From positions 491,891-555,890 of the forward strand of contig OZ241738.1 in assembly GCA_965200925.1 (NCBI GenBank): 64,000 nt of DNA, given 5' to 3'. Each line of letters begins with the position of its first letter. Positions within the stretch are counted from its first letter, which is position 1. This DNA is from Alphaproteobacteria bacterium (GTDB taxonomy: Bacteria; Pseudomonadota; Alphaproteobacteria; UBA828). The translations under genes and the position numbers were made by a program. This document shows positions 3,791 through 20,503 of this stretch, piece after piece. The notes under the pieces were generated by a model. The model was not told where the DNA came from, did no database searches, and saw only the letters and a list, made by a program, of their open reading frames with translations.

Positions 3791-3897
3791 GGGAACCTCC
3801 AATGACCCGCTGCCCTTCTCAGGCCGATTAATTGGGGGATTACATACATAGGTTGACAAGAGGATATCAGCTTCGCTGCAGTTCGCTACCCGTATAA

Positions 3898-3964: not shown

Positions 3965-4092
3965 ACGCTCGAGAGGCCGGTCTACGATGGCCGAGCGCGG
4001 CGGTATGGCGACGATGCCGGCGGATCGTGCGCGGGCGGAAAGCTGACAAGGCCGTCGAGTCATGTCCGCGCTTCCGCGGCGTTCGCCCCTGC

Positions 4093-5220
4093 TCAATCGA
4101 CGATGAGCCCGTGTTTGGGCAGGAGATCGCGCAGCACATAGATTCGGTGCAGTGCGGCGGCCTGATAGAAGCGCCAGATATGTGTATCCATGGCGATTCC
4201 GTAATCGTCGCCGCCGTCCAGACTTTCCCACTGCGCGTTCCAGTCCTCGCCCTCGTAATCCGGAATCGCCTCGCCGGCTTCACCGAACAGCGTGCCGGCC
4301 CGCGCAGCGTTCTGCCAAGCCTCGACACGTTCGGCTTCGTTGCCCTGGGTCAGCAGAATCTCCCGCACGCGGGGGGCGATGGCTTCGAAGTCCCGGCCGG
4401 CGCCGGTGTCGACGTCGGGCCGCAGACGGGCGAATCGCCGGAACATGTCGTGCAGGGCCCGGCACCCCGCCAGAAAGGTGACCGGGTTGTTGCGCGTGCT
4501 GCGTATCCCGGCGACCGCGTCCGGGCGCTCGTAGTCGTAACTCCAGACCAGATAGGGCCGGTCGGGCAGGGTGGCGACAGAGCCGTGCCCCAGCGCCCCC
4601 GACGCTTCTTCGGCGAGCCAGCCCTGGATGTTGGTGAGCAGGCCGCCATGCGCCCCCCGCTTCTCGAAGAACGAAGCGGCCTTCCGCGTGACATAATCCC
4701 GCATCTCGGACGACAGCTTCGCCGTCGCACCGTCTGCGCCTTCGACCTCCTCGTGAAAGCGGAAACTGCCGTTGTCGACTCTGTTGCCGCGGGAGCTGAC
4801 GCCCGAGAATCCGTAGTGCGAGAACGTGTCGGCATAGACGTGCGCGGCGATGCCCAGCAGGTGCGGCGCGAAGGCGCGATCCGCATACGTCAGATGGTGG
4901 TCGCGCATCTCCCGCGCGATCCCGCTGTCCATGCGGCACTTCAAGCGTTCCGTGTAGGTCTCGCCGACGTTGCCGGGAATGAAATGGAACGGCACCCACA
5001 CCCGGCGCTGGTCGCGGTCGTCGCGGTTGGAGAGGTCGAAGGGATGATGGGCGGTGGCTTCCGTGTCGATGCGCGACCCGTCCCGAAAGGTCACCCGGCT
5101 TCGCGCCGCGTTGTCGTCCACGAACTGGGCAGACATCGCGACGACCCGCGCCGTTTCCCGCTCCAGTCCCGCGGCGCGGGCCATGGCGTAGGCACCGTAA
5201 TAATGCATGTCGATCTGCAT
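4093..5220 (-). CDS. Hypothetical His-rich protein, possibly a metal-dependent hydrolase (Zn-PLC/S1-P1 nuclease-like fold very tentative); first gene inside the island
   Basis: Real start taken at MQIDMHYYGAYAMARAAG (ATG 5220); upstream part of ORF 4093..5382 is leader. Motifs HHPFD and HLLGIAAHVYADTFSH. Diverse amino-acid composition, unlike the overlapping antisense ORF 4027..5808. Confidence 0.45.
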   Translation of the reverse strand: MQIDMHYYGAYAMARAAGLERETARVVAMSAQFVDDNAARSRVTFRDGSRIDTEATAHHPFDLSNRDDRDQRRVWVPFHFIPGNVGETYTERLKCRMDSGIAREMRDHHLTYADRAFAPHLLGIAAHVYADTFSHYGFSGVSSRGNRVDNGSFRFHEEVEGADGATAKLSSEMRDYVTRKAASFFEKRGAHGGLLTNIQGWLAEEASGALGHGSVATLPDRPYLVWSYDYERPDAVAGIRSTRNNPVTFLAGCRALHDMFRRFARLRPDVDTGAGRDFEAIAPRVREILLTQGNEAERVEAWQNAARAGTLFGEAGEAIPDYEGEDWNAQWESLDGGDDYGIAMDTHIWRFYQAAALHRIYVLRDLLPKHGLIVD

Positions 5221-5312: not shown

Positions 5313-5480
5313 ATATGGCCTGTCGTTGACGGAGCACCGGCGCCGTGGTAGCGACCAGCCGCCATGCACGGTCAGGCCGCATGTTCCTTTCGCCTCTCGC
5401 CGGACGCCGAGTCCCGCGCCGGGGCCGAAACGGCCGGCTTCCGCCTTGGGGCCAAAGGCACGCACACCAGCCGCACGATC

Positions 5481-6173
5481 ATGCTGGCGGAGCTGGAGGC
5501 GGTCCTGGCAGCGGCCGGTGCGGACGCCGCGCGGGCCGACTACGCGGCGGCGATCATTGAGACCAACTGTTTGTCGAAGCCTACCGCGGCGACGCGCCGG
5601 CTCTCGTGCCAGCGGCTGCGCGAGCTCCACGGGCTGGACCCGGCGCTGCCGCTGTTCCGCGTGCTCCGGCGCCTCTGGGCCTTCGATCCGGCGGGCCGCC
5701 CGCTTCTGGCCTTGCTGTCGGCGCTCGCTCGGGATCCGCTGCTTGCCGCCACCGTTCCCGCGATCGTGTCCCTGCCGCCCGGCGCCGATTTCCAGCGTGC
5801 GCCGATGAAGGCCGCGCTGCGGAGCGCCGTGGGCGAGCGCCTGAATGAGGCGGTCCTCGACAAGACCTGCCGCAACGCGGCCAGCAGCTGGACGCAATCG
5901 GGGCATCTCGAAGGGCGGACGTTCAAGAAGCGGCGGCGGGTCACGGCCTCCACGGCGGCCGTCGCCTTCGCCCTCTGGCTCGCCGGCGCCGCAGGCTGTC
6001 GCGGCGCTGGCGTCTTCGTCTCGGCGTGGCTGCGGCTGGCCGATTGCGGTCCCTCGCGGGCGCGCCGCCTGGCCCTGGAAGCGAAGCGGCTCGGCCTGAT
6101 CGACCTCCGGATGGCCGGCGATGTCGTCGAGCTCGACACGGCCCGGCTCGACCCCGCCGGAAGAGGGGTGTGA
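5481..6173 (+). CDS. brxA: BREX protein BrxA (DUF1819-like)
   Basis: First gene of a co-directional operon followed by BrxB and BrxC. Size ~230 aa; start ATG 5481 inside ORF 5364..6173. Assignment rests mainly on position and size. Confidence 0.55.
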   Translation: MLAELEAVLAAAGADAARADYAAAIIETNCLSKPTAATRRLSCQRLRELHGLDPALPLFRVLRRLWAFDPAGRPLLALLSALARDPLLAATVPAIVSLPPGADFQRAPMKAALRSAVGERLNEAVLDKTCRNAASSWTQSGHLEGRTFKKRRRVTASTAAVAFALWLAGAAGCRGAGVFVSAWLRLADCGPSRARRLALEAKRLGLIDLRMAGDVVELDTARLDPAGRGV

Positions 6174-6739
6174 CCGTGTCGCGCATCGAGGACCTCGCGG
6201 AAGCCTACGGCCGGCATATTGCGACGCCCTGGCAGCGGACGGTCGCCGGCGCCCAGCGTGTCGTGATGGTCGTCTACGACAAGGAGCAGGAGCGGATGCT
6301 GCGCGCCCGCAGGCTCGCCTTCGAGACCGCGACAAAGCGGGCCGGATACGCTTGGCTGGAGGTCGATCTGGCGCCGGCTTTCGCCGAATGGATGGCCGGC
6401 GACGAATACCGGGAGGCGTATTTCGCGACGCCCGAGGATCTGCGGCTGAAGCTCGACGCCGCGTTCCCGGACCATGTGGCCGGCCGCATCCGCGAGCGGC
6501 TGACTTCGGCGGACGCCACGGAGGCTTCCGTCGTCGCGGTCTTCGGCGCGGGCGCGCTCTTCGGCCTCGCGCGGGTCTCGCGAATCCTCGGCATGGTCGA
6601 GAGCGATATCCGCGGCCACCTCGTCCTTTTCTTCCCGGGTCAGTACGAACGGAACAACTACCGCTTGCTGGACGCGCGCGACGGCTGGAACTATCTCGCC
6701 GTGCCGATCACGCTGCGTGGCGCGGAGGAGCACGGATGA
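6170..6739 (+). CDS. brxB: BREX protein BrxB (DUF1788-like)
   Basis: ~190 aa. GTG 6170 overlaps the brxA stop (GTGA). Immediately precedes BrxC, whose ATG overlaps its stop (ATGA). Confidence 0.6.
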   Translation: MTVSRIEDLAEAYGRHIATPWQRTVAGAQRVVMVVYDKEQERMLRARRLAFETATKRAGYAWLEVDLAPAFAEWMAGDEYREAYFATPEDLRLKLDAAFPDHVAGRIRERLTSADATEASVVAVFGAGALFGLARVSRILGMVESDIRGHLVLFFPGQYERNNYRLLDARDGWNYLAVPITLRGAEEHG

Positions 6740-9700
6740 AGATCAAGGACGTCCTCCAGCGCGATCCTGCGGCGCACCCCCTCGTCAACAAGGGCCAGGC
6801 CCGGATCGCCGACCGCGAGGACGCGCAGGTGATGCGGGAGCTGCACGGCGAGCTCGCGACCTTCGTCTGCGAGGGCCAATATGCGGACGGCATCCAGAGG
6901 ATCGTCCGTTCGTTCCTCGACGATCTGGGCCGGACCAGCCAGCGCGGCGCCTGGGTCAGCGGCTTCTTCGGCAGCGGCAAGTCGCACCTCCTGAAGATGC
7001 TCTGCCACCTGTGGCGCAACACCGAATTCCCCGACGGGGCGACGGCGCGCAGCCTGGTTCCCGCGATCCCCGAAGATCTGGCCGCGCTGCTGCGCGAGCT
7101 CGACGTCGCCGCCCGGCGCGCCGGCGGCCTCATGGCCGCGGCCGGTTCGCTGCCCAGCGGCAGCACCGACCACGTGCGCCTCACCATCCTCGGGCTGCTG
7201 CTGCGCGCCGCCGGCCTGCCGGCGCAGTACCCCCAGGCCCGGTTCTGCCTGTGGCTGCACGCCGAGGGGCGCTTCGACGCCGTGAAATCCGCGGTCGAAG
7301 CGGAGGGCCGGCGCTTCGAGCGGGAGCTCAATGACCTCTATGTGAGCGGCGCGATCGCCCGCGCCGTCCTCGCCTGTGCCCCGTCCTTCGCGGCCGGCGA
7401 AGCCGAGGCCAGGCAAGCGATCAGGGCGCAATTCCCGCCCCAGGCCGCCGACATCGCGACGGCGGAGTTCCTGCGCACGGCCAAGGACGCCCTGGCGCAT
7501 GCTTCCGATAGTGAGGGCCGGGTGCCGTGCACACTCGTCGTGCTCGACGAAGTGCAGCAATATATCGGCGATTCGACCGAGCGTTCCATGCTCGTCACCG
7601 AAGTCGCGGAAGCCGTCGAAAAGCAGCTCGATAGCCACGTGATGATCGTCGGCGCGGGCCAGAGCGCGTTGACCGACGCGCCGCTCCTCCAGAAGCTGAT
7701 GGACCGCTTCACGATCCGCGTCCCGCTCTCCGACGCCGACGTGGAGACGGTCACCCGCAAGGTGCTGCTCCAGAAGAAACCCAGCGCCGTCGCCGCTCTG
7801 CGCGCGCTGCTCGAAAGGCACGGCGGCGAGATCTCGCGGCAACTCCAGGGGACCCGGCTGGGCGAGACCGCTGCGGACCGCGTGGCCCTTGCGGACGACT
7901 ACCCGCTGCTGCCGGTCCGCCGGCGTTTCTGGGACGCCTGCTTCCGCCAGATCGACGCGGCCGGCACCCACAGCCAGTTGCGTTCGCAGCTGCGCATCGT
8001 CCACGACGCCCTGGCCAGACTCTCCGACCGGCCGCTCGGCGCGGTCGTCGCCGGCGACGAACTGTTCGATGCGCTCGCGCCCGAGATGGTCAACACCGGC
8101 GTGCTGCTGCGGGAGATCAACGAACGGATCATCGAGGTCGGCGAGGCCGAAGGCGCGCTCGCGCGCCGCCTCTGCGGGCTGATCTTCCTGATCGGCAGGC
8201 TGGCGCGGGAGGCGGGAGCGGATACCGGCGTCCGGGCGACCGCAGACCACCTCGCCGATCTGGTCATCGACGATCTCGCCGCCGACAACGGCAAGCTCCG
8301 CAGCGCGGTCGAAACGACGCTCGGCAAGCTCGCCGGCAACGGCATCCTGATGCGGGTGGGCGAGGAATACCGCCTTCAGACCCGCCAGGGCGCCGAATGG
8401 GATCGGGAGTTCCGCAATCGGCAGACCCGCCTGAACAACGATTCCGCCGCGATCCAGCTTCGGCGCGACGCGCTTCTCCACGGAGAGATCGACAGGATCG
8501 TCCGCGGTCTGCGCATGGTCCAGGGGGCGGCGAAGGAACCCCGGCGCTTCGCCGTTCACCGGGGGGCGTCCCCGCCGCCCGCCGCCGACGGTTCCACGAT
8601 CCCGGTCTGGGTCCGCGACGGCTGGGCGGCGTCGGAGAAGGCGGCGGTGGAGGCGGCGCGGGCGGCGGGCGCCGCCGACCCGACGATTCACGTCTTCGTG
8701 CCCCGTCGTTCGGCGGACGATCTGCGCCGCCTGATCGTCGAGGCGGCCGCGGCCGAACAGGCGCTCGACGCGCGCGGCAACCCGACCGAGCCCGAAGGCC
8801 AGGAGGCGCGCCGGAGCATGGAGAGCCGTCGCGCCCGCGCCGAGGCCGGGCGCGACGCTCTGGTCCGCGACGTCGCCGCCAACGCCAAGGTCTTCCAGGG
8901 CGGCGGCAACGAGGTCCTTCTCGCGGCGCTGGAAGACCGCCTCCGGGCCGCCGGCGAGGACGCGCTCGCGCGCCTGTTCCCCCGCTTCAGGGAAGCCGAT
9001 GGCGCGGCGTGGCCGTCCGTCATCAAGCGTGCGCGTGACGGCGCCGACCACCCGCTCCAGCCGGTCGGGCACACGGACGCGGTGGAAAAGCACGCGGTCT
9101 GCCGGCAGGCGCTTGCCGAGATCGGCGTCGGCGCGTCCGGGGCCGCGTTGCGCAAGGCGCTGGCCGGCCCGCCCTTCGGTTGGCCGCGCGACGCCGTGGA
9201 CGCGGCGCTGATCGCGCTGCATCGCGCGCGGCATCTGTCCGCGACGCTGAACGGCGCGGCGCTCCCGCCAGGCGGGCTCGACCAGAACCGCATCGCGAAG
9301 GCGGCGTTCCGCGCCGAGCGCGCGGCCCTCTCGGTTCAGGATCGCTTGGTCCTGCGGAAGCTCTTCCAGGCCGCCGATCTTGCCTGCAAGAGTGGCGAGG
9401 AGGAAGCCCGGGCGAATGATTTCCTGGACACGCTTGCCGAACTCGCCCGTTCGGCCGGCGGTGAACCGCCGCTTCCCGTCCCGCCCGGTACGGTCGACGT
9501 CGAGGACGCGCGCCGGCTGGCCGGGAACGAACGGCTGGCGGCCATCCGCGACAAGGCCGACGAATGGGAAGGGAAGATCGCCGAGTGGCGCGCGGCGGCG
9601 AAGTCGATCGCCGCGCGTCTGCCGGCATGGCGCCTGGTCGAGCGGCTGGCGGCGCATGCCGAAGGGATCGAAGAGGCCGGGCCGCAGCGCCGCGAGGTGG

Positions 9701-10191
9701 CGGCGGTGCGCGACGGGCGGCAATTGCTGGCGGGCGCGGATCCGGCCGCCGCCATCCGCAAGGCGCTGGCGGACCTTCTCCGCGCTTCCGTCCGGGCCGG
9801 GTTCGAGGCCCTTGAGGCCGCCTTCGCCGAGGCCATGCGGACTCTCGACGCGAACGAAGCATGGCGAAAAGCCGCGCCCGCCGACCGCGAGGCGATCCTG
9901 AAAGAGGCGGGGCTGGCCGCACCGGCGAAGCCGGAGGTCGCGACCGACGAAGCCCTGGCCGACTGCCTCGACCGGCGCTCCCTTGCGGGCGTCCGCGCCG
10001 AGATCGACGCCGTCCCGGCACGCGCGGCCCGTGCCGTCGAGCGGGCGGCCCGGCTGCTGGAACCGAAGGTCCGCCCGGTCGCCCTGGAGCGGGCCACCTT
10101 GCGCGACGCCGCCGAGGTCGAGGCGTGGGCCGAGCGCCAGAAGAAGGCGCTGCTCGAAGCCGTCGCCGACGGCCCGGTGCTGGTGAATTGA
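6736..10191 (+). CDS. brxC: BREX P-loop ATPase BrxC/PglY (~1150 aa)
   Basis: MKIKDVLQRDP... N-terminus with Walker A GFFGSGKSHLLKMLCHLW. Large size and position between BrxB and PglX. Confidence 0.85.
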   Translation: MKIKDVLQRDPAAHPLVNKGQARIADREDAQVMRELHGELATFVCEGQYADGIQRIVRSFLDDLGRTSQRGAWVSGFFGSGKSHLLKMLCHLWRNTEFPDGATARSLVPAIPEDLAALLRELDVAARRAGGLMAAAGSLPSGSTDHVRLTILGLLLRAAGLPAQYPQARFCLWLHAEGRFDAVKSAVEAEGRRFERELNDLYVSGAIARAVLACAPSFAAGEAEARQAIRAQFPPQAADIATAEFLRTAKDALAHASDSEGRVPCTLVVLDEVQQYIGDSTERSMLVTEVAEAVEKQLDSHVMIVGAGQSALTDAPLLQKLMDRFTIRVPLSDADVETVTRKVLLQKKPSAVAALRALLERHGGEISRQLQGTRLGETAADRVALADDYPLLPVRRRFWDACFRQIDAAGTHSQLRSQLRIVHDALARLSDRPLGAVVAGDELFDALAPEMVNTGVLLREINERIIEVGEAEGALARRLCGLIFLIGRLAREAGADTGVRATADHLADLVIDDLAADNGKLRSAVETTLGKLAGNGILMRVGEEYRLQTRQGAEWDREFRNRQTRLNNDSAAIQLRRDALLHGEIDRIVRGLRMVQGAAKEPRRFAVHRGASPPPAADGSTIPVWVRDGWAASEKAAVEAARAAGAADPTIHVFVPRRSADDLRRLIVEAAAAEQALDARGNPTEPEGQEARRSMESRRARAEAGRDALVRDVAANAKVFQGGGNEVLLAALEDRLRAAGEDALARLFPRFREADGAAWPSVIKRARDGADHPLQPVGHTDAVEKHAVCRQALAEIGVGASGAALRKALAGPPFGWPRDAVDAALIALHRARHLSATLNGAALPPGGLDQNRIAKAAFRAERAALSVQDRLVLRKLFQAADLACKSGEEEARANDFLDTLAELARSAGGEPPLPVPPGTVDVEDARRLAGNERLAAIRDKADEWEGKIAEWRAAAKSIAARLPAWRLVERLAAHAEGIEEAGPQRREVAAVRDGRQLLAGADPAAAIRKALADLLRASVRAGFEALEAAFAEAMRTLDANEAWRKAAPADREAILKEAGLAAPAKPEVATDEALADCLDRRSLAGVRAEIDAVPARAARAVERAARLLEPKVRPVALERATLRDAAEVEAWAERQKKALLEAVADGPVLVN

Positions 10192-10203
10192 GGAGATACC
10201 GCA

Positions 10204-11403
10204 ATGTCCTTCATCCGCCGTATCGGCCTGCGCGGCCTGCTGTCGTTTCCGCCCGACATGGAGCCGTTCGATTTCCAGCCGCTGAACGTGCTGATCGGCC
10301 CCAACGGCTCCGGGAAGACGAACCTGATCGAGGCGCTGGAGCTTCTCCGCGCGACGCCAACGGATTTCGCCGCCGCGATCCGCGATGGCGGCGGCGCGGC
10401 GGAATGGTTGTGGAAAGGCGAGAATCCAGCGAGGGCGGCGACGGTAGACATCGAGACCGGAGACTCGACGCCATCGACCGGCCGGCCGTTGCGCTATCTT
10501 CTCCAATTCACGTCGTCGAATAGCCGGGTCGAGGTGCTCGACGAAGCGATCGAGGAAGTGAAGCCCGACATTGGACATGACGAACCGTATTTCTATTATC
10601 ACTTCCAGCAGGGACGACCGGCCATTAACGTCAAAGAGACAACGGAAGGTGGTTCTGGTGGACATGTGGAAAGGCGCCTCAAGCGAGACGACATTTTGCC
10701 GGATCAGTCTGTCCTGATGCAACGCAAGGAACCGGATCTCTACCCGGAAGTCGCTTGGATCGGGCGCATGTTCGGGCAAATCCAGACGTTCCGCGACTGG
10801 ACCTTCGGGCGTTATGCTCCATTAAGGCAGCCACAACCTGCGGATCTGCCGGAGGATCGACTGCTGCCCGATAATCGCAACTTAGCCTTGCTTCTCAATC
10901 AAGTCGAACACCGTGATCCTCGGCGGTTCAACGAACTCCTTAAGCGATTCTTCCCACGTTTTGAACGGATGTCGACCAGGATCTCCGGCGGCACGGTGCA
11001 ATTCTATCTGCATGAGTCCGGTTTCGAGTCACCGATCCCCCCGACACGGCTGTCGGATGGGACGGTGCGCTTTGTCGCTATCCTCGCGACCCTGCTGGCG
11101 CCGTCGCCGTCGCCGCTCGTATGCATTGAAGAACCGGAGCTCGGGCTGCACCCCGACGCGCTGACGCTGGTTGCCGAGCTTCTGGTAGAGGCATCCGAGC
11201 GTATGCAACTTGTGGTCACCACGCATTCGGATGCACTTGTCTCCGCGTTGACGAACCAACCGGAATCTGTCGTTGTTTGCGAGCGGCCGGGTGCGGGTAC
11301 CGTGCTGGAACGACTCGATCCCGAAAAGTTGGCGCACTGGTTGAACGAGGATTATGGGCTTGGCGACTTGTGGCGTATCGGAAAACTGGGCGCCAATCCA
11401 TGA
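10204..11403 (+). CDS. ABC-type ATPase (AAA_21/AAA_15-like; OLD/AriA/PtuA-like N-terminal ATPase), module 1
   Basis: Walker A LIGPNGSGKTNLIEALELL. Walker B/D-loop LVCIEEPELGLHPDA. H-loop VVTTHS. 399 aa. Confidence 0.75.
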   Translation: MSFIRRIGLRGLLSFPPDMEPFDFQPLNVLIGPNGSGKTNLIEALELLRATPTDFAAAIRDGGGAAEWLWKGENPARAATVDIETGDSTPSTGRPLRYLLQFTSSNSRVEVLDEAIEEVKPDIGHDEPYFYYHFQQGRPAINVKETTEGGSGGHVERRLKRDDILPDQSVLMQRKEPDLYPEVAWIGRMFGQIQTFRDWTFGRYAPLRQPQPADLPEDRLLPDNRNLALLLNQVEHRDPRRFNELLKRFFPRFERMSTRISGGTVQFYLHESGFESPIPPTRLSDGTVRFVAILATLLAPSPSPLVCIEEPELGLHPDALTLVAELLVEASERMQLVVTTHSDALVSALTNQPESVVVCERPGAGTVLERLDPEKLAHWLNEDYGLGDLWRIGKLGANP

Positions 11404-12011
11404 GTTCCGTCGAAATCTATATGGAGGGGGGAGGGGATCATCGAAATGGTAAGGAACGTCTTCGTCTCGGTATGGATGCGTTTCTTAGCGAGATGAAGGG
11501 CATGGCCAGGTCCCGGTCGACCCGCTGGAGACTCGTTCTTTGTGGTGGGCGGAACCAGGCATATCGGGCGTTTGTGGAAGCGTGTCGGAGCGACCGGGAC
11601 AGCATCTTCGTGCTGCTGGTCGATTCGGAAGGTCCCGTAAATTCCTCGCCGCGCGCCCATCTGGCCGCGGACGGGTGGGACCTGGACGGAGTGGACGAAG
11701 ACCGGGTTCATCTGATGGTCCAGACGATGGAAACCTGGATCGTCGCCGACCCCGAGGCCCTTGCCGCCTATTACAGGCAGAGCTTTCGAGCGAACGCTCT
11801 CCCGGCGGCGGACGACCTGGAAACGGTCGCCAAGAACGAGGTCGCCAGTGCCCTGGACCGGGCGACCGAGCAGACGCAGAAAGGCCGCTACCACAAGATC
11901 CACCACGCCGCCGACCTCCTCGCGTGCATCGACCCGGCGAAGGCGCGGGCGCGCTGCCGCCATTGCGAGCGCCTGTTCGCCACCCTCGACGCGGCCGTCG
12001 CGGCGGGGTGA
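11400..12011 (+). CDS. Small TOPRIM-like partner protein (DUF4276-like; alternatively DUF4435/AriB-like), module 1
   Basis: ATG 11400 overlaps the ATPase stop (ATGA). ~203 aa. N-terminal EIYMEGGGD (conserved Glu) and LLVDSEG (acidic motif) are consistent with TOPRIM/OLD-nuclease-like small partners of AAA_21 ATPases. Confidence 0.55.
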   Translation: MSSVEIYMEGGGDHRNGKERLRLGMDAFLSEMKGMARSRSTRWRLVLCGGRNQAYRAFVEACRSDRDSIFVLLVDSEGPVNSSPRAHLAADGWDLDGVDEDRVHLMVQTMETWIVADPEALAAYYRQSFRANALPAADDLETVAKNEVASALDRATEQTQKGRYHKIHHAADLLACIDPAKARARCRHCERLFATLDAAVAAG

Positions 12012-12100
12012 GGCGATGAGCGCGCTTTCGCGGGAATCGCGCCGGGCGCTGGAGAGGGCCGTCCGCAAGGCCCGCGCCGCCGCCGAAGCGGGCGCGGGCA
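11984..12100. repeat. ~117-bp direct duplication, copy A, spanning the DUF4276-1 3' end and the first 28 codons of pglX (near-identical copy B at 14003-14119)
   Basis: gcggccgtcgcggcggggtgaggcgatgagcgcgctttcgcgggaatcgcgccgggcgctggagagggccgtccgcaaggcccgcgccgccgccga is identical in both copies, then 2 mismatches and divergence after gggcaag. Confidence 0.85.
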
Positions 12101-12132
12101 AGATGAAGTTGGGGGGAGGGGAGGAGAGATGA
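12016..12132 (+). pseudogene. pglX 5' stub (MSALSRESRRALERAVRKARAAAEAGAGK + 9 unrelated codons); insertion scar
   Basis: Translation is identical to the first 28 residues of full-length PglX at 14025. Terminates after KLGGGEER; its stop overlaps the ATPase-2 start (ATGA). Confidence 0.7.
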
Positions 12133-13355
12133 ACATGACCGACGAACAGCTTGCTGGCGTTCCGCGGATCGAGCGTTTGAAGGTGCGGAATTTTCGGGTG
12201 TTGAAAGACGTCGATATAAGGGATTTGACGCCTTTGACGGTGCTGCTTGGACCGAACGGGAGCGGCAAAACCACCTTGTTCGACGTGTTCGCGTTCCTCT
12301 CCGAATCCTTCGAGGACGGCCTGAGGCGCGCCTGGGATCGACGCGGGCGGGCCAGAGAGCTCAAGACCCGTGGCGCCAAAGGCCCGGTCATCGTCGAACT
12401 CAAATACCGCGAGCGACCGGGCACACCGCTTATCACCTATCACCTGGAGGTGGACGAGCATGATGGCGCGCCCAGTGTCGTCCGTGAATGGCTATGGTGG
12501 AAACGGCACAGCTATGGACGCCCGTTTCGTTTTCTCGAATACCGAAATGGCGGAGGCACAGCGATCAGCGGCGAACAACCCGATGTCGAGGAGGATAGAA
12601 TCCCAATTCCTCTCAAGTCTCCCGACCTGCTGGCGGTCAACACGCTTGGGCAGCTCCGGGAGCATCCGCGCGTGGCCGCGCTGCGCGACTTCATTATGAA
12701 CTGGCACGTATCCTACCTTTCCGTGGATGACGCGCGCGGGCATCCGGAAGCGGGCCCCGAGAAGTGGTTGACCAGGACCGGCGATAATCTCGCCAACGTG
12801 ATTCAGTATCTGAAGGAGAATCATCCGAAGCGGTTGAAGAGGATATTCAAATTATTGGGGCGGCGGGTGCCGCATGTCGAGAAGGTTCGCGCTGAAACCA
12901 TGCCGGACGGGCGACTGCTTCTGCAAATCAAGGACGCGCCGTTCGATCATCCGGTTCAGGCGCGCTTCGCTTCCCATGGAACGCTCAAGATGCTGGCCTA
13001 TCTGGTGTTGCTGCATGACCGGAATCCGTCGCCGTTCATCGGTATCGAGGAACCGGAGAATTTCCTGCATCCGAGGCTACTTCCCGAATTGGCGGAAGAA
13101 TGCCGCGCGGCCAGCGCGCGCACGCAACTGCTCGTCACGACGCACTCCCCGTTTTTTCTGAACGCGCTTCGCCCCGAGGAAGTCCGCGTTTTGTGGCGCG
13201 ACGAAACCGGCCACGCGCAGGTCGAGCAGACCTCTGGTCTCGAGGGAGTGGCGGAGTTCATGGATAACGGGGCGCTGCTCGGGCAGCTGTGGGCAGAAGG
13301 GCAGTTCGGCGTCGGCGATCCACTGGTCCGTCGCGGCGGAGGACGCCGCCGATGA
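12129..13355 (+). CDS. ABC-type ATPase (AAA_21-like), module 2, diverged paralogue of the 10204 gene
   Basis: RIERLKVRNFRVLKDVDI...LTVLLGPNGSGKTTLFDVFAFL (Walker A). FIGIEEPENFLHP (Walker B). LVTTHSPFF (H-loop). 408 aa. Confidence 0.75.
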   Translation: MNMTDEQLAGVPRIERLKVRNFRVLKDVDIRDLTPLTVLLGPNGSGKTTLFDVFAFLSESFEDGLRRAWDRRGRARELKTRGAKGPVIVELKYRERPGTPLITYHLEVDEHDGAPSVVREWLWWKRHSYGRPFRFLEYRNGGGTAISGEQPDVEEDRIPIPLKSPDLLAVNTLGQLREHPRVAALRDFIMNWHVSYLSVDDARGHPEAGPEKWLTRTGDNLANVIQYLKENHPKRLKRIFKLLGRRVPHVEKVRAETMPDGRLLLQIKDAPFDHPVQARFASHGTLKMLAYLVLLHDRNPSPFIGIEEPENFLHPRLLPELAEECRAASARTQLLVTTHSPFFLNALRPEEVRVLWRDETGHAQVEQTSGLEGVAEFMDNGALLGQLWAEGQFGVGDPLVRRGGGRRR

Positions 13356-13969
13356 CGTCGGCGCGCCATTTTATATTTCTTGTCGAGGAACCATCCATGG
13401 AGGCGTTTCTCCAGGCGCTCGTTCCACGTATTCTTCCCGATTGCGAGTGCGACATTCGACTGTTTCAGGGGAAACGGGATACGATGAAAAATCTACCGAA
13501 CCGTCTTCGCGCTTATAGCCGCTGGCTGCCCGAAAATTGGCGTATCGTCGTGATGGTCGATCGCGACAACGACGATTGCCGGCTGCTCAAGGCGCAGCTG
13601 GAAAAGGCAGCTGCCGAGTCGCGGCTACGCACGCGCGCGCAATCCGGCGGCGCTTGTTGGCAGGTCGTCAACCGCATCGTGATCGAAGAACTGGAGGCTT
13701 GGTATTTCGGAGACTGGGACGCCGTTCGGCGCGCCTACCCAAAGGTTCCCGATACGATTCCGGGGAAAGCTAAATACCGGAACCCGGACGAGATACACGG
13801 CGGAACGTGGGAAGCATTCGAGCGTGTCCTTCAGAAGCACGGGTATTTCAAGGGTGGGCTACGCAAGATCGAGGCCGCGTGCGCCATCGCCCCGCACGTC
13901 GATCCAGGGCGCAACCGGTCGCCGAGTTTCGCGGCGTTTCGCGATGCACTCGTCGAGGCGGCTGCCTGA
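13352..13969 (+). CDS. Small TOPRIM-like partner protein (DUF4276-like), module 2
   Basis: ATG 13352 overlaps the ATPase-2 stop. ~205 aa. FIFLVEEPSMEAF (conserved Glu) and VMVDRDNDD (DxD) are typical of TOPRIM. Confidence 0.55.
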   Translation: MTSARHFIFLVEEPSMEAFLQALVPRILPDCECDIRLFQGKRDTMKNLPNRLRAYSRWLPENWRIVVMVDRDNDDCRLLKAQLEKAAAESRLRTRAQSGGACWQVVNRIVIEELEAWYFGDWDAVRRAYPKVPDTIPGKAKYRNPDEIHGGTWEAFERVLQKHGYFKGGLRKIEAACAIAPHVDPGRNRSPSFAAFRDALVEAAA

Positions 13970-14002
13970 CGATGGCGATTGGGAAGAAATGCTGGCGGCG
14001 CG

Positions 14003-14119
14003 GCCGTCGCGGCGGGGTGAGGCGATGAGCGCGCTTTCGCGGGAATCGCGCCGGGCGCTGGAGAGGGCCGTCCGCAAGGCCCGCGCCGCCGCCGAGGCGG
14101 GTGCGGGCAAGGCGCTGGA
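14003..14119. repeat. ~117-bp direct duplication, copy B (covers the start of functional pglX)
   Basis: See copy A at 11984-12100. Confidence 0.85.
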
Positions 14120-17100
14120 AAGCCTCGCGGTCGGCCGCCGCGAACCTTGGGAGTCGATGACGCCGGACGGCCGCGCGCTGCGCAACCGGCTGCGCGCCCA
14201 CGGGCGGCATCTCGGCGACCGGCGCGACCCCCGGAGCGGCACACAGGCGAGCGGCCGGCTGATGCGGGAATGCGCCTACGAGCACTGGCACCGGATGCTG
14301 TTCGCCCGCTTCCTCGCCGAGGCCGGCCTGCTGATCGAGCCGGAAACCGGCGTCGCCGTCACCCTCGCCGAGGCGAAGGAGCTCGCCCGCGCCACCGGCG
14401 ACCGACCACTGGCCACCGGCGACCGACCACTGGCCACCGGCGACCGACCACTGGCCACCGGCGACCGACCACTGGCCACCGGCGACCGACCACTGGCCAC
14501 CGGCGACCGACCACTGGCCACCGGCGACCGACCACTGGCCACCGGCGACCGATCACTGGCCACCGGCGACCGACCACACGACTGGCTGGCGCTGGCCGGC
14601 GCCTGGGCCGGGCGGATGCTGCCGCAGATCTTCCGCGCCGGCGACCCGGTTCTCGACGTCGCCTTGCCGCCGGAAACGCGGGCCGACCTCGAAGCGCTGC
14701 TGGAGGGGCTGCCGCGCGCGACCTTCCTCGCCGACGACAGCCTCGGCTGGGTCTACCAATTCTGGCAGGCGGACAGGAAGGAGGCGGTCAACCGCTCCGG
14801 CGTCAAGATCGGCGCCGACGAGCTCCCGGCCGTCACCCAGCTCTTCACCGAGGATTACATGGTCCTGTTCCTGCTCCACAACACGCTGGGCGCGTGGTGG
14901 GCGGGCAAGGTGCTGGCGGCGCGCCCCGGCCTCGCGCAATCGGCCGGAAGCGAGGAGGAACTGCGCGAAGCCTGCAAGGTCGGCGCCGTGGAGTGGCGCT
15001 ATCTGCGCTTCGTCCGCGCGGAGGGGGAAGATGGCGCACCCGGCCCGTGGCGCCCGGCGGCGGGCGCGTATCCCGGCTGGCCGCGCGCGGCGAAGGACGT
15101 GACGCTGTGCGACCCGTGCATGGGTTCGGGGCATTTCCTGGTCTTCGCCCTGCCGATCCTCGCCGCGTTGCGCATGGCGGAGGAGGGGCTTTCGCGGGAG
15201 GCGGCGACGGACGCCGTGTTGCGCGACAACCTCTTCGGCCTGGAGATCGACCCGCGCTGCACGCAGATCGCCGCCTTCACCCTCGCCTTCGCCGCGTGGC
15301 GCATGGCGGGATACCGCTCGCTGCCGGCGCTGAACCTCGCCTGTTCCGGCCGCGCCGTCGGCGCGTCGAAGGCGGAATGGCGGCGGCTGGCGGAGAGGGC
15401 CGCCGCGGCCGCCGACCCGGCCGCCGCCCGCGACCCGCTCGGCGCGGAGGAGACCTTGCGCGCGGCCGGCGTCGAAGAGCGCGTGAAGAACGGGCTCGAG
15501 GCGCTGCACGAATTGTTCGCCCAGGCGCCGGCGCTCGGCAGCCTGATCGACCCGCGCCGGGTGAGCGGCGACATCCTGACCGCGGATTTCGAGGCGCTGG
15601 AGTCGTTGCTGGGCGTGGTTCTCAAGGCGGCGGAGAACGACAGTGAGACCGCGGAGATGGCCGTCGCCGCGCAGGGCATGGCGAAGGCGGCGGAACTCCT
15701 GGGGCGGCGCTTCACGCTGGTGGTGACGAACGTGCCCTTCCTCGGGCGCGGCAAGCAGGACAGGGTGTTGCAGGACCATCTGGCGGTGCATTTCGACGAC
15801 GCGAAGCGCGATCTCGCCACCGCCATGCTTCGCCGCCTGCTGGGCTTCGCGGATACGGGCGGGGTGGTCGCCGCCGTTACGTCGCAGAATTGGCTGTTCC
15901 TGAAGTCCTACGCGAAGCTGCGCAAGCGCGTGTTGCGGGAAACGACATTGAACGTCGTCGCCGCGCTCGGGCCACGCGCGTTCGAGACCATCAGCGGCGA
16001 GGTCGTGAATACCGCCCTGGTAACACTCACCGCCACCTCGCCGCCAAGCGATGCGGCCTTTGCTAGCCTGGACACCAACGACGGTGCGGATGCGGCCGCG
16101 AAAGCGCGGGCGCTGTCGCAGGGGGAGCTATCGCTGCCGGCGCAGGCGGCGCAGAACGCGAATCCGGTTTCTAACCCTGATCTTGTTATTGGATATGAAA
16201 GCAAAGAAGGAACTCAAACCCTTGATAGCGTAAGTTATTGCTATCAGGGCTTGGCGACCAGCGATAATTCCCAATTTGTTATCAACTTTTGGGAACTTGC
16301 AAGGATTTCTGGTGGCTGGGAACCATTCCAAATGACATCCGATGGGACATCAACCTTGAGCGGATGCTCTTGGATAATCCATTGGGAGAACGGCGAAGGT
16401 CGTTATGCACGACATGCGAAGGCTCTAAAAAAGGCAGGAAGGCTTGGAGGATGGAAATCAGGCCATGAGGCTTGGGGGAAGGTTGGCGTCGCAGTCAACA
16501 GAATGAAAGATCTTCCATGTTCTCCATATTTCGGTACAATGTTCGATTGTAATGTTGCTGTTATTATACCTGACGATCCTGAAGATTTCTCGTGGATTTG
16601 GGCACAGGTTCGGACTTCTGAGTATTCAAAAGAGGTTCGTCGACTGAACCGGAATGTTAGTGTGGCCAATCTGACGTTGATCAGGGTGCCGATTGATGAA
16701 AAAATTCGTAGAGCCGATTCATTTCCTAACTTGAGCGCAGCGCAGTGCCCCAACCCGACGCAATGGCTGTTCGACGGACACCCCGCCCGCGCGGACGCAC
16801 CGCTGCAGGTCGCCGCCGCCCGCCTGTGCGGCTATCGCTGGCCACGCCAGACCGGCTCCAGCTTCATGGATTGCCCAACCGTCGGCCCCGACGGGCTCGA
16901 GCGCCACGCGGACGCCGACGGCATCGTCTGCCTCGCCGCCATCGCCGGCGAGGCCCCGGCGCACGAACGGCTGGCCGCGCTGCTCACCGACGCCTTCGGC
17001 CCCGATTGGTCGGCGGCCCGGTTCGCCGGCCTGCTCGCCGAGGCGGGCTTCGCCGGCAAGAGCCTCGACGACTGGCTCCGCGACGGCTTCTTCGCCCAGC

Positions 17101-17735
17101 ACTGCAAGCTGTTCCGCCACCGCCCCTTCGTCTGGCACGTCTGGGACGGCCGCCGCGACGGCTTCCACGCGCTGGTCAACTGCCACCGCCTCGCCGCGCC
17201 CGGCGGCGAAGGCCGGCGCACGCTGGAGAAGCTGATCTGGTCCTGTCTCGGCGCCTGGATCGACCGCCAGCGGGCCGAACGGGACGCGGAAACCGAAGGC
17301 GCCGACGCCCGCCTCGCCCACGCCGAACACCTGCGCGCCGAACTCGTCAAGGTCCTCGAAGGCACGCCGCCCTACGACCTCTTCGCCCGCTGGAAGCCGC
17401 TCCACGAACAACCCCTCGGCTGGGAGCCGGACGCGAACGACGGCGTGCGCGTCAACATCCGCCCCTTCATGACCGCCCGCCCCCTCGCCGCCAGGGCAAG
17501 GAACGCTTGCATCCTGCGCACGACGCCCAACATCCACTGGCGCAAGGACCGCGGCAAGGAGCCCCGGCGGGAGAAGGCCGACCACCCCTGGTTCTGGAGC
17601 CGCAACCCGGACGACCCTGCCCACGAAGTCGATTTCCCCGGTGGCGCGGATTTCGACGGCAACCGCTGGAACGATCTGCACTACACTCGCGCCGCCAAAG
17701 AAGCCGCGCGGGCGGCGGAAGGAGAAGGCCGATGA
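14025..17735 (+). CDS. pglX: BREX adenine-specific DNA methyltransferase PglX (~1236 aa)
   Basis: N6-adenine MTase motifs DPCMGSGHFLVFA and VVTNVPFLG. Size and position. ATG 14025 chosen inside ORF 13824..17735. Confidence 0.85.
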   Translation: MSALSRESRRALERAVRKARAAAEAGAGKALESLAVGRREPWESMTPDGRALRNRLRAHGRHLGDRRDPRSGTQASGRLMRECAYEHWHRMLFARFLAEAGLLIEPETGVAVTLAEAKELARATGDRPLATGDRPLATGDRPLATGDRPLATGDRPLATGDRPLATGDRPLATGDRSLATGDRPHDWLALAGAWAGRMLPQIFRAGDPVLDVALPPETRADLEALLEGLPRATFLADDSLGWVYQFWQADRKEAVNRSGVKIGADELPAVTQLFTEDYMVLFLLHNTLGAWWAGKVLAARPGLAQSAGSEEELREACKVGAVEWRYLRFVRAEGEDGAPGPWRPAAGAYPGWPRAAKDVTLCDPCMGSGHFLVFALPILAALRMAEEGLSREAATDAVLRDNLFGLEIDPRCTQIAAFTLAFAAWRMAGYRSLPALNLACSGRAVGASKAEWRRLAERAAAAADPAAARDPLGAEETLRAAGVEERVKNGLEALHELFAQAPALGSLIDPRRVSGDILTADFEALESLLGVVLKAAENDSETAEMAVAAQGMAKAAELLGRRFTLVVTNVPFLGRGKQDRVLQDHLAVHFDDAKRDLATAMLRRLLGFADTGGVVAAVTSQNWLFLKSYAKLRKRVLRETTLNVVAALGPRAFETISGEVVNTALVTLTATSPPSDAAFASLDTNDGADAAAKARALSQGELSLPAQAAQNANPVSNPDLVIGYESKEGTQTLDSVSYCYQGLATSDNSQFVINFWELARISGGWEPFQMTSDGTSTLSGCSWIIHWENGEGRYARHAKALKKAGRLGGWKSGHEAWGKVGVAVNRMKDLPCSPYFGTMFDCNVAVIIPDDPEDFSWIWAQVRTSEYSKEVRRLNRNVSVANLTLIRVPIDEKIRRADSFPNLSAAQCPNPTQWLFDGHPARADAPLQVAAARLCGYRWPRQTGSSFMDCPTVGPDGLERHADADGIVCLAAIAGEAPAHERLAALLTDAFGPDWSAARFAGLLAEAGFAGKSLDDWLRDGFFAQHCKLFRHRPFVWHVWDGRRDGFHALVNCHRLAAPGGEGRRTLEKLIWSCLGAWIDRQRAERDAETEGADARLAHAEHLRAELVKVLEGTPPYDLFARWKPLHEQPLGWEPDANDGVRVNIRPFMTARPLAARARNACILRTTPNIHWRKDRGKEPRREKADHPWFWSRNPDDPAHEVDFPGGADFDGNRWNDLHYTRAAKEAARAAEGEGR
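14391..14577 (+). repeat. In-frame 21-bp tandem repeat (gccaccggcgaccgaccactg, ~8.9 copies) encoding (ATGDRPL)n within pglX
   Basis: Eight perfect or near-perfect copies from 14391 (copy 8 carries a C>T giving P>S) plus a partial ninth. Translation ATGDRPL x7, ATGDRSL, ATGDRPHDW. Confidence 0.9.
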
Positions 17736-20494: not shown

Positions 20495-20503
20495 GGCGCG
20501 GCG

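What the first reader, a model, noticed from the sequence alone, without database searches (positions are those of the whole stretch)
10204..13969. Two tandem, diverged ABC-ATPase + small TOPRIM-like (DUF4276-like) gene pairs inserted between brxC and pglX (PARIS/OLD-like two-gene modules)
Each pair consists of a ~400-aa AAA_21-type ABC ATPase (Walker A GPNGSGKT, Walker B IEEPE..HP, H-loop TTHS). Each is immediately followed, with an ATGA overlap, by a ~205-aa protein with TOPRIM-like hallmarks: N-terminal Glu (YMEGG / LVEEP) and an acidic DxD cluster (VDSEG / VDRDNDD). The architecture matches split OLD-family/PARIS-like (AriA/AriB) or Septu-like two-gene defence modules. The two pairs share the same architecture, but their protein sequences differ substantially (two paralogous specificities?). 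The brxC-pglX junction is a known insertion hotspot for such modules in BREX loci. The exact family (DUF4276 vs DUF4435) cannot be decided from sequence reading alone.
Basis: partly seen in the sequence, partly recalled or inferred. Interest (0 to 1): 0.8.

Follow-up and report, generated by a model that had tools for sequence, protein, structure and literature searches.

The report
Two stacked nuclease modules inside BREX
Two very different versions of a known two-gene candidate anti-phage module (an ATP-driven sensor plus a small nucleic-acid-cutting enzyme) sit back to back inside a larger phage-defence operon. Duplicated scraps of the neighbouring genes show how the second was stacked onto the first, so this is a clear example of a known kind, not a new system.

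Summary
Window 10204-13969 holds two ABC-ATPase (AAA_21) + DUF4276 gene pairs, each with an ATGA overlap, between brxC and pglX of a complete type 1 BREX operon.

New here: pair 2 is flanked by a 116-nt direct repeat (the pair-1 tail plus the first 29 pglX codons). Gene conversion keeps the repeat identical within genomes. It leaves a short leader ORF that ends on the pair-2 ATPase start codon.

Related BREX loci show the same stacking arising independently:
- a reverse-order doublet with a duplicated brxC tail;
- a doublet of two pair-1 alleles;
- a doublet outside BREX.

The best reading is two autonomous sensor-nuclease back-up modules co-expressed with BREX, stacked by unequal recombination at a cargo hotspot. 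The kind is known; the evolutionary detail is modestly interesting.

The parts
6736..10191 (+). brxC, the upstream flank of the insertion. Its stop codon lies 12 nt before the A1 start codon.
   Evidence: PADLOC BrxC model PDLC02489, 1392 bits, covering residues 206-1355 of the long ORF. 80 homologous loci were retrieved.
10204..11403 (+). A1: the pair-1 ABC ATPase (HEC-01A subtype PDLC04177). Walker A Lys is K38, Walker B is I308-E312, and the H-loop His is H341.
   Evidence: Pfam AAA_21 3.4e-39. PADLOC HEC-01A 6.8e-154. Best NCBIfam match is MAD3 at 85 bits, below its 420-bit cut-off. dN/dS against L081 is 0.21.
11400..12011 (+). T1: the pair-1 DUF4276 Toprim-like protein. Residues E9, D75, E77, E111 and D117 are invariant in its family.
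11987..12102 (+). R-left: the left copy of the 116-nt direct repeat. It comprises the last 25 nt of T1 (stop codon included), a 4-nt spacer and the first 29 codons of pglX.
   Evidence: the repeat finder family D2, 97% identical to 13996-14111.
12016..12132 (+). pglX' leader ORF (38 codons, MSALSRESRRALERAVRKARAAAEAGAGK + MKLGGGEER). It starts 4 nt after the T1 stop, and its TGA overlaps the A2 ATG.
   Evidence: Sequence and translation. An equivalent 43-codon ORF with the same ATGA overlap is present in L081.
12129..13355 (+). A2: the pair-2 ABC ATPase (HEC-01A subtype PDLC04182). Walker A Lys is K47, Walker B is I306-E310, and the H-loop His is H339.
   Evidence: Pfam AAA_21 3.2e-31. PADLOC HEC-01A 3.3e-154. 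NCBIfam MAD3 at 116 bits, cut-off 420. Nearest solved relatives by sequence are PtuA and Thermus OLD. dN/dS against L081 is 0.25.
13352..13969 (+). T2: the pair-2 DUF4276 Toprim-like protein. Residues E12, E13, D70, D72, E112, E113 and E115 are invariant in its family.
13996..14111 (+). R-right: the right copy of the 116-nt repeat. It carries a vestigial copy of the T1 tail followed by the real start of pglX.
   Evidence: The first 60 nt of pglX and pglX' are 60/60 identical within the window.
14025..17735 (+). pglX (BREX methyltransferase), the downstream flank. It contains an in-frame 21-nt tandem repeat at 14391-14577.
   Evidence: PADLOC PglX PDLC02528, 1377 bits. Pfam Eco57I/N6_Mtase. TRF: period 21, 8.9 copies.

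Best explanation
The region holds two autonomous HEC-01-type modules. Each is a 'split OLD nuclease': an OLD-family ABC ATPase of about 400 aa plus a DUF4276 Toprim nuclease of about 200 aa. Both are embedded in, and co-expressed with, a type 1 BREX operon at the brxC-pglX cargo hotspot.

Shown here:
- The family assignments.
- The predicted Toprim fold, with conserved acidic residues at the expected positions.
- Tight operon punctuation (12 nt, ATGA, 4 nt, ATGA, ATGA, 55 nt), with no terminator signal in the intergenic gaps.
- Purifying selection on all four genes.
- The same module types standing alone outside any defence locus.

Inferred by analogy with PARIS, OLD and Gabija:
- The ATPase oligomer holds its Toprim partner in check and senses an infection cue. 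A phage anti-restriction protein of the kind that disables BREX is one candidate.
- ATP-dependent activation then frees the nuclease, which makes metal-dependent cuts in nucleic acid. Whether the target is tRNA or DNA is undetermined.
- The result is growth arrest or abortive infection, a back-up layer behind BREX.
- The two modules are so diverged that they most likely respond to different triggers or resist different inhibitors.

Origin: the ancestral state was brxC-pair1-pglX, as seen in about 13 related loci. Pair 2 was added by unequal or illegitimate recombination, probably with a BREX allele carrying different cargo at the same site. This duplicated the T1-tail/pglX-head junction. Gene conversion has since kept the two copies nearly identical. 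The left copy survives as a short leader ORF that terminates on the A2 start codon.
For: Family:
- HEC-01A/B HMM matches range from 1e-69 to 1e-154, with different sub-models for the two pairs.
- DUF4276 scores are above the gathering threshold.

Fold and catalytic residues:
- The AF2 models have pLDDT 88.7 and 90.4.
- An invariant Glu follows strand 1 (E12/E13 in T2; E9 in T1).
- D70-x-D72 (T2) or D75-x-E77 (T1) follows strand 3.
- An acidic motif follows strand 4.
- This agrees with published assignments of DUF4276 to the Toprim superfamily (PMC12065111; bioRxiv 10.1101/2024.01.29.577857).

Function:
- dN/dS is 0.14-0.27 against L081.
- One HEC-01 representative protected E. coli B against at least one of T7, T5 and T4 (PMC12881386).
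- Mad3 and Mad4 are required for MADS defence; the source read for one search identifies Mad4 as a DUF4276 homologue, and PADLOC/NCBIfam name Mad3 as an ATPase.

Autonomy:
- Stand-alone pairs of both subtypes occur among metabolic genes (L084, L087-L091).
- A doublet persists without BREX in L173.

Hotspot:
- Of 69 related loci, 48 are empty and 21 are occupied. Thirteen of the occupied loci carry a pair-1-type module. The others carry TIR, ADP-ribosylglycohydrolase + AAA_21, NB-ARC or ParA-like cargo.
- The literature reports OLD-ABC/Toprim modules as BREX back-up effectors (PMC12839542).

Origin:
- The 116-nt repeat is 97% identical between its copies.
- The same architecture occurs in L081 (76% nt identity, collinear) and L083 (94%).
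- pglX/pglX' codons 1-20 are 100% identical within the window and within L081, but only 80% identical between the two genomes.
- Independent stackings left remnants of brxC or pglX: L172 has the reverse order with a duplicated brxC tail, and L053 has a pglX head joined to a brxC tail.
Against: - No activity, trigger or target has been shown for these proteins.
- The HEC-01 representative tested by Payne et al. protected against none of the phages tried. Experimental support for the family rests on one positive screen.
- T1 has D-x-E rather than the canonical D-x-D motif.
- The fold evidence rests on predicted models. No DUF4276 structure was found in the PDB by sequence search.
- Sensing of anti-BREX proteins is pure analogy. 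In Salmonella, the BREX-embedded PARIS did not respond to Ocr.
- No BREX allele carrying pair 2 alone at this junction, as the recombination model assumes, was found among the 80 relatives.
- The leader ORFs could stay open by chance in DNA of about 70% GC.
Confidence: 0.65

Rival explanations
1. The pairs are integrated accessory subunits of this BREX system rather than autonomous systems. On this reading they play the role Mad3/Mad4 play in MADS and supply a nuclease arm to a methylation-based system whose killing step is unclear. Their activity would then depend on BREX proteins or on methylation status.
For: - mad3 and mad4 deletions abolish MADS defence, and a mad3 deletion strain served as the source of the plasmid preparations the authors labelled methylated.
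- MAD3 is the best NCBIfam match for both A1 and A2.
- The pairs are translationally coupled inside the operon.
- Pair-1-type modules recur at exactly this junction in 13 of 69 related BREX loci, and their divergence roughly tracks that of BrxC.
Against: - The MAD3 scores (85 and 116 bits) are far below the 420-bit equivalog cut-off, and T1/T2 match no NCBIfam model.
- 48 of 69 close BREX relatives lack any insert.
- Both subtypes occur as isolated two-gene operons among metabolic genes.
- The doublet survives in L173 without brxABC or pglX.
- dS of pair 1 (about 1.2-1.4) differs from dS of BrxC (0.64), which suggests cassette exchange rather than strict co-inheritance.
Confidence: 0.15
2. The pairs act mainly as selfish addiction or toxin-antitoxin-like cassettes, with the ATPase restraining a toxic nuclease. 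They would stabilise themselves and the BREX island rather than provide phage defence.
For: - Pfam labels AAA_21 as 'putative AbiEii toxin, Type IV TA system'.
- AriA is deposited in the PDB as 'AriA antitoxin'.
- One tested HEC-01 representative gave no phage protection.
- The GC3 of the modules is foreign to the locus.
Against: - Another HEC-01 representative did protect against phage.
- Homologous ATPase-Toprim systems (PARIS, Gabija, OLD) are bona fide defences.
- Placement in a hotspot alongside TIR, NB-ARC and ADP-ribosylglycohydrolase cargo is typical of defence modules.
- A sensor-restrained toxic effector and abortive-infection defence are not mutually exclusive.
Confidence: 0.12
3. 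One of the two pairs is a decaying passenger left by a rearrangement, and the doublet has no functional meaning.
For: - The flanking duplication shows that a rearrangement took place.
- Direct repeats of this kind would promote loss of the intervening DNA.
- Remnants of modules exist elsewhere, for example a 52-residue A1-like fragment in L060.
Against: - All four ORFs are intact and retain the catalytic motifs.
- dN/dS is 0.14-0.27 across about 24% nucleotide divergence.
- The doublet is retained in L081, L083, L172 and L173.
Confidence: 0.04

Closest known systems
HEC-01 (PADLOC 'Hma-embedded candidate 01'; Payne et al., bioRxiv 10.1101/2024.01.29.577857)
   Same: The two-gene architecture is the same: an ABC ATPase followed by a DUF4276/Toprim protein. 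All four proteins match HEC-01A/B HMMs at 1e-69 to 1e-154. The module is embedded in a methylation-based defence operon and lies in the same orientation.
   Different: The host operon here is type 1 BREX, not Hma. Two distinct HEC-01 subtypes are stacked in tandem, with duplicated host-gene ends between them. I did not see a stacked doublet mentioned in the passages of that preprint that I read.
PARIS (AriA/AriB)
   Different: AriB is a DUF4435 protein of about 300 aa. T1 and T2 are DUF4276 proteins of about 200 aa with no DUF4435 or AriB HMM match. The generic AriA HMM matches A1 and A2 (1e-36, 6e-31) much more weakly than the HEC-01A models do. The PARIS paper's domain key lists DUF4276 as an accession separate from DUF4435.
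OLD-family nucleases, class 2 (Burkholderia pseudomallei OLD, PDB 6NK8) and Gabija GajA
   Different: OLD and GajA are single polypeptides, and class 2 members are paired with a UvrD-like helicase. Here the ATPase and the Toprim protein are separate, translationally coupled genes, and no helicase is present.
MADS Mad3/Mad4 (Maestri et al., bioRxiv 10.1101/2023.03.30.534895)
   Same: MADS contains an ATPase plus DUF4276 pair inside a methylation-associated defence operon, and both genes are needed for defence there. MAD3 is the top NCBIfam match for A1 and A2.
   Different: The scores are far below the equivalog cut-off. No mad1 or mad5-mad8 genes were found. The PADLOC mad2 model gives a weak hit to the methylase region of PglX (1.3e-07). 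The surrounding system is BREX.
Salmonella BREX-PARIS island and BREX 'backup effector' modules (PMC11341690; PMC12839542)
   Same: These are also OLD-ABC plus nuclease modules nested inside BREX operons and expressed with them. They have been proposed as a second line of defence against anti-BREX phages.
   Different: Those reports, as far as I read them, describe single embedded modules. This locus has two stacked modules at the brxC-pglX junction, plus a further TrlF-like ATPase + SLFN pair at the pglX-pglZ junction.

Membership tests
HEC-01 (PADLOC) | The ATPase matches a HEC-01A HMM as its best PADLOC model. | tested here: met
   A1 matches PDLC04177 at 6.8e-154. A2 matches PDLC04182 at 3.3e-154. 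AriA, PtuA, Old and GajA models score far lower.
HEC-01 (PADLOC) | The partner matches a HEC-01B HMM and lies adjacent on the same strand. | tested here: met
   T1 matches PDLC04201 at 2.5e-69. T2 matches PDLC04202 at 5.6e-85. Both have ATGA overlaps with their ATPase genes.
HEC-01 (PADLOC) | Anti-phage activity. | not testable with these tools
   The literature is mixed: no protection for one representative and protection for another.
Pfam DUF4276 (PF14103) | Score above the gathering threshold (30.2 bits). | tested here: met
   T1 scores 77.5 bits and T2 121.4 bits.
Toprim superfamily | Three-layer alpha/beta fold with four core strands, similar to known Toprim nucleases. | tested here: met
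Toprim superfamily | A conserved Glu after strand 1 and a DxD motif after strand 3. | tested here: met
   T2 has invariant E12/E13 and D70-R-D72. T1 has invariant E9 and D75-S-E77, a DxE variant (read against the strand positions).
PARIS | The AriB partner is a DUF4435-type Toprim protein. | tested here: not met
   Neither T1 nor T2 has a DUF4435 match in Pfam at E <= 0.1, and neither matches a PADLOC AriB model.
Septu | A PtuB HNH nuclease partner. | tested here: not met
   The partners are DUF4276, with no HNH match.
OLD class 1/2 and Gabija | ATPase and Toprim fused in one polypeptide. For class 2 and Gabija, an adjacent UvrD-like helicase is also required. | tested here: not met
   The two domains are encoded by separate genes. 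No helicase gene lies between brxC and pglX.
MADS | A MAD3 equivalog (NCBIfam NF047739, cut-off 420 bits) together with the mad6-8 core genes. | tested here: not met
   A1 scores 85 bits and A2 116 bits. The neighbours are BREX genes.
Type 1 BREX (host operon) | brxA, brxB, brxC, pglX, pglZ and brxL on one strand. | tested here: met
   PADLOC matches: BrxA 3.9e-92, BrxB 6.3e-73, BrxC 1392 bits, PglX 1377 bits, PglZ 5.8e-271, BrxL 7.9e-285.
   Pfam ABC_tran matches have E of only 0.008 and 0.001 and fall below the cut-off. NCBIfam transporter models score 19-29 bits against cut-offs above 200.

The most novel reading that the evidence does not exclude
The stacking is not accidental. Under this reading, the pair-1-type and pair-2-type HEC-01 modules form a recurrently selected composite.

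Evidence that fits this reading:
- The composite was assembled at least twice, in opposite gene orders.
- It was retained as a unit even after the BREX core was lost (L173).

The duplicated BREX gene ends between modules would then act as recombinase-free cassette junctions. They would keep every module translationally coupled to the operon. They would also let modules be gained, lost or amplified by homologous recombination. L083 may already show a third module. In effect, this would be an integron-like array of defence cassettes inside a BREX operon.
Probability: 0.2. Interest if true: 0.6.

Novelty: new member of a known kind. Interest (0 to 1): 0.4.

Why it matters
HEC-01 (ABC ATPase + DUF4276) is common. 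Searches returned 6225 T2-like and 1223 T1-like proteins at E <= 1e-5. Yet the family is barely characterised: it has one negative and one positive phage screen, no solved structure found by sequence search, and no known trigger or target.

This locus and its relatives offer a natural comparison set:
- BREX without an insert;
- BREX with one module;
- BREX with two different modules in either order;
- the doublet without BREX.

That set makes it directly testable whether such modules act alone, back up BREX, or cooperate.

The duplicated gene-end linkers also give a concrete, sequence-level picture of how cargo accumulates in a defence-operon hotspot without breaking operon expression. The picture is unequal recombination followed by gene conversion. 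This adds to the 'embedded defence systems' literature but does not overturn anything.

Tried and rejected
- **Exact-sequence look-ups of A1 and A2.** Neither is on record, so the source genome is not in the collection.
- **Sequence searches of T1, T2 and the T2 family profile against the PDB.** Only chance-level hits. Fold evidence therefore had to come from predicted models.
- **The 116-nt repeat as a structured RNA or riboswitch-like element.** The fold z-score is +0.9 (169 of 200 shuffles fold at least as well), and there are no Rfam hits at E <= 0.1 across 9800-14400. Rejected.
- **Internal promoters or terminators separating the modules.** One terminator-like site was found, inside A2, against 4.1 expected by chance. 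Four weak promoter-like sites lie inside coding sequence. There is no evidence for separate transcription units.
- **tRNA or integration-site signature.** No tRNA genes anywhere in the window. No inverted terminal repeats or short target-site duplications typical of transposons flank pair 2.
- **Recent tandem duplication as the origin of the two pairs.** Rejected: A1/A2 share 27% identity, and T1/T2 are unalignable by BLASTP.
- **PARIS, Septu, Gabija or MADS membership.** Each fails a defining feature (see the membership test).
- **A BREX allele carrying pair 2 alone at the brxC-pglX junction.** None was found among the 80 BrxC relatives. Among the 27 of 80 metagenomic pair-2-type loci longer than 6 kb, all are singletons, and only three lie near PglX- or BrxL-like genes, at a different position.

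Full report
**1.

- A1 at 10204-11403 (399 aa) and T1 at 11400-12011 (203 aa);
- A2 at 12129-13355 (408 aa) and T2 at 13352-13969 (205 aa).

In each pair the small gene's ATG overlaps the ATPase stop codon (ATGA).

Pfam assigns both large proteins to AAA_21 (3e-39 and 3e-31), with secondary AAA_15/SMC_N matches. Both small proteins match DUF4276 (PF14103) well above the 30.2-bit gathering score, at 77.5 and 121.4 bits. The quoted Walker A, Walker B, H-loop and acidic motifs are all present.

The surroundings are a complete type 1 BREX operon on the same strand:
- BrxA at 5364-6173;
- BrxB at about 6179-6739;
- BrxC at 6736-10191;
- PglX at 14025-17735;
- PglZ at about 21712-24030;
- BrxL at about 24033-26081.

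The four genes have GC3 of 0.67-0.77, against 0.82-0.92 for the BREX core. That is consistent with foreign cargo.

**2. Family identity.**

All four proteins find their best PADLOC models in HEC-01:
- A1 matches HEC-01A PDLC04177 (6.8e-154), and T1 matches HEC-01B PDLC04201 (2.5e-69).
- A2 matches HEC-01A PDLC04182 (3.3e-154), and T2 matches HEC-01B PDLC04202 (5.6e-85).

The two pairs therefore belong to different sub-models of one candidate system.

They are anciently diverged, not recent paralogues. A1 and A2 share 27% identity. T1 and T2 have no significant BLASTP similarity. A profile-profile comparison of the T1 and T2 families gives only E = 0.027, although the alignment is colinear and pairs VDRD with VDAE and EELEAWYFGD with QTMETWIVAD.

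In NCBIfam the nearest named family for both ATPases is MADS MAD3, at 85 and 116 bits, far below its 420-bit cut-off. The small proteins match no NCBIfam model. By sequence, the closest solved ATPases are PtuA, Thermus OLD, AriA and SMC/Rad50 heads, not transporter subunits.

**3. The Toprim prediction was tested.**

Homologue searches returned 6225 T2-like and 1223 T1-like proteins at E <= 1e-5. The alignments show these invariant residues:
- T2 family: E12, E13, D70, D72, E112, E113 and E115.
- T1 family: E9, D75, E77, E111 and D117.

AlphaFold2 models built on these alignments are confident: pLDDT 88.7 and pTM 0.85 for T2, and pLDDT 90.4 and pTM 0.86 for T1.

The conserved acidic residues fall at the canonical Toprim positions:
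- the Glu immediately after strand 1;
- D-x-D (T2) or D-x-E (T1) at the end of strand 3;
- the acidic motif after strand 4.

No DUF4276 structure is detectable in the PDB by sequence or profile.

These results agree with two published assignments of DUF4276/HEC-01B to the Toprim superfamily.

**4. What is known about the family.**
- HEC-01 was defined as an ABC ATPase + Toprim pair embedded in Hma systems. The representative tested there protected E. coli against none of the phages tried.
- A different HEC-01 representative, from a cold-seep genome, protected E. coli B against at least one of T7, T5 and T4.
- In MADS, the mad3 and mad4 deletions each abolish defence. Mad4 is described as a DUF4276 homologue in PMC12065111.
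- OLD-type ABC ATPases paired with Toprim or other nucleases have been catalogued as 'backup effectors' inside BREX loci in at least 1242 taxa.
- The Salmonella BREX island carries an embedded PARIS system.

The kind of module, and its embedding in BREX, are therefore already described.

**5. Comparative context.**

A scan for BrxC relatives returned 80 loci at 44-76% identity. Of these, 69 contain both brxC and a pglX start. Their junctions divide as follows:
- In 48 loci, brxC and pglX abut within about 10-20 nt.
- In 21 loci, the junction is occupied.
- In 13 of the occupied loci, the cargo is a pair-1-type ATPase + DUF4276 module with the same tight spacing on both sides.

Other cargo at the junction includes a ParA-like ATPase, DUF4062/HATPase_c_4 + TIR, ADP-ribosylglycohydrolase + AAA_21, and an NB-ARC/TPR/Schlafen protein. 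The junction is a genuine cargo hotspot.

No pair-2-type gene occurs in these 80 loci.

Both subtypes also occur as isolated two-gene operons among metabolic genes (L084, L087-L091). Among 27 metagenomic pair-2-type loci longer than 6 kb, all are singletons, and three lie near PglX- or BrxL-like genes. This argues for autonomy of the two-gene unit.

**6.

A 116-nt direct repeat, 97% identical between its copies, lies at 11987-12102 and 13996-14111. It consists of the last 25 nt of T1 including its stop codon, a 4-nt spacer, and the first 29 codons of pglX.

The right copy runs on into the real pglX. The left copy is a 38-codon ORF (12016-12132) whose TGA overlaps the A2 start codon. The operon is thus punctuated without a gap:
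- brxC stop, then 12 nt, then A1;
- A1/T1 ATGA overlap;
- T1 stop, then 4 nt, then the leader ORF;
- leader/A2 ATGA overlap;
- A2/T2 ATGA overlap;
- T2 stop, then 55 nt, then pglX.

Pattern scans give no sign of internal transcription units. The repeat has no unusual RNA structure and no Rfam match.

**7. The doublet is inherited, selected and homogenised.**

The closest T2 homologues (89% and 85% identical) lie in two metagenomic contigs with the same brxC-pair1-pair2-pglX architecture:
- L083 is 94% identical to the window at the nucleotide level.
- L081 is 76% identical and collinear over 9 kb.

L081 has the equivalent repeat and a 43-codon leader ORF that again ends in an ATGA overlap with A2.

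Codons 1-20 of pglX and pglX' are 60/60 nt identical within the window and 60/60 within L081. Between the two genomes they are only 80% identical. This is the signature of gene conversion between the copies after a single ancestral event.

All four genes are under purifying selection between the window and L081, with dN/dS of 0.14-0.27. The synonymous divergence (dS) varies:
- pair 1: 1.2-1.4;
- BrxC: 0.64;
- pair 2: 0.37-0.56.

This hints at allele exchange of the cassettes.

L083 ends with the right repeat followed by a second, 95.6%-identical A2 start. That is either a third module or a strain chimera in the assembly. I could not distinguish the two.

**8. Stacking has happened repeatedly.**
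- **L053** is the closest BrxC relative (76%). It carries two pair-1-type modules, 66% identical in both proteins. They are separated by a pglX head (about 32 codons) joined to a brxC tail (129 nt).
- **L172** has a BrxC 78% identical to the window's. Its order is reversed: brxC-pair2-[39-codon ORF]-pair1-pglX. The short ORF is a degraded copy of the BrxC C-terminus, and a 99-nt repeat (78% identical) flanks pair 2.
- **L173** has the same pair2-ORF-pair1 unit. It lies next to a DUF1156 methylase, with brxABC and pglX absent.

In every case the linker is a remnant of the neighbouring BREX gene end. The simplest common mechanism is unequal or illegitimate recombination between BREX alleles carrying different cargo at the same hotspot. 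That is an inference. The predicted brxC-pair2-pglX parental allele was not found.

The linker ORFs (38-72 codons) bridge the modules in all five doublets. Such ORFs could stay open by chance in DNA this GC-rich, so I do not claim selection for them.

**9. Mechanism.**

Shown here:
- the family and the predicted fold;
- conserved catalytic residues;
- operon coupling;
- purifying selection;
- autonomous occurrence elsewhere.

Inferred from PARIS, OLD and Gabija:
- The ABC ATPase oligomer restrains its Toprim partner and senses an infection cue.
- ATP-dependent activation then unleashes metal-dependent cleavage of nucleic acid, causing abortive infection.
- The substrate (tRNA as for AriB, or DNA as for OLD and GajA) cannot be decided from sequence.
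- Given their divergence, the two modules most plausibly differ in trigger and/or in sensitivity to phage inhibitors.
- Sensing of anti-BREX proteins is an attractive guess only. The Salmonella BREX-embedded PARIS did not respond to Ocr.

The main rival is that the pairs are MADS-like integral subunits of BREX. It is disfavoured by three observations: the stand-alone pairs, the 48 empty junctions, and the BREX-less doublet in L173. It has not been excluded.

**10. Verdict.**

The modules are new members of a known, sparsely validated kind. Embedding in BREX is already documented.

The added value is evolutionary:
- the junction duplication and its concerted evolution;
- the coupled leader ORF;
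- the recurrent, bidirectional stacking of two HEC-01 subtypes.

Interest is moderate (0.4).

Noticed in passing
window 14391-14577: pglX contains an in-frame 21-nt tandem repeat: 8.9 copies, 98% matches, encoding (ATGDRPL)n. The array is absent from the PglX genes of L081 and L053; their alignments to the window jump from 14399/14391 to 14579. The PADLOC PglX model also skips residues of about 126-185. This is a lineage-specific, length-variable insertion in the N-terminal part of the BREX methyltransferase.
   Followed up: partly
window 17732-21706: A second embedded cargo sits between pglX and pglZ. It comprises a 920-aa TrlF-family/Ppl-like ABC ATPase (NCBIfam 338 bits against a cut-off of 350) and a 400-aa Schlafen AlbA_2 + HATPase_c_4 protein. 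The same pair occupies the same position in L085, L086 and L172.
   Followed up: partly
L053 13470-17362: The closest BrxC relative (a Paracoccaceae MAG) has its own tandem doublet of two pair-1-type modules, 66% identical in both proteins. The ATPases are 93% identical at the N-terminus but only 37-40% identical around residues 210-270. The modules are separated by a pglX head joined to a brxC tail.
   Followed up: yes
L172 8748-12566; L173 3308-7145: These loci carry reverse-order doublets (pair-2 type followed by pair-1 type). The modules are linked by a short ORF that is a degraded copy of the BrxC C-terminus. In L173 the doublet lies beside a DUF1156 methylase, with no brxABC or pglX.
   Followed up: yes
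L083 3950-4222: After pair 2 and the right-hand repeat, the contig continues into a second A2 start that is 95.6% identical to the first. This is either a third tandem module or a strain-chimeric metagenome assembly.
   Followed up: partly
window 10204-13969 versus L081: Synonymous divergence differs between neighbouring genes. dS is about 1.2-1.4 for pair 1, 0.64 for BrxC and 0.37-0.56 for pair 2. This suggests that cassette alleles have been exchanged independently of the BREX backbone.
   Followed up: no
L005, L012, L048, L059, L072, L080 (brxC-pglX gaps): Related BREX loci carry other cargo at the same junction: a ParA-like AAA_31 protein; DUF4062 + HATPase_c_4 with a TIR protein; ADP-ribosylglycohydrolase next to an AAA_21 ATPase; an NB-ARC/TPR/Schlafen protein; and ORFs with no Pfam match.
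   Followed up: partly
window 124-2909 and 2500-4500: Upstream of BREX there is an 836-aa methyltransferase-glycosyltransferase fusion, followed by a 92-aa fragment with a SLOG (LDcluster4) match. A stretch of lower GC (0.60-0.63) then precedes brxA; its ORFs gave no Pfam or PADLOC hits.
   Followed up: no
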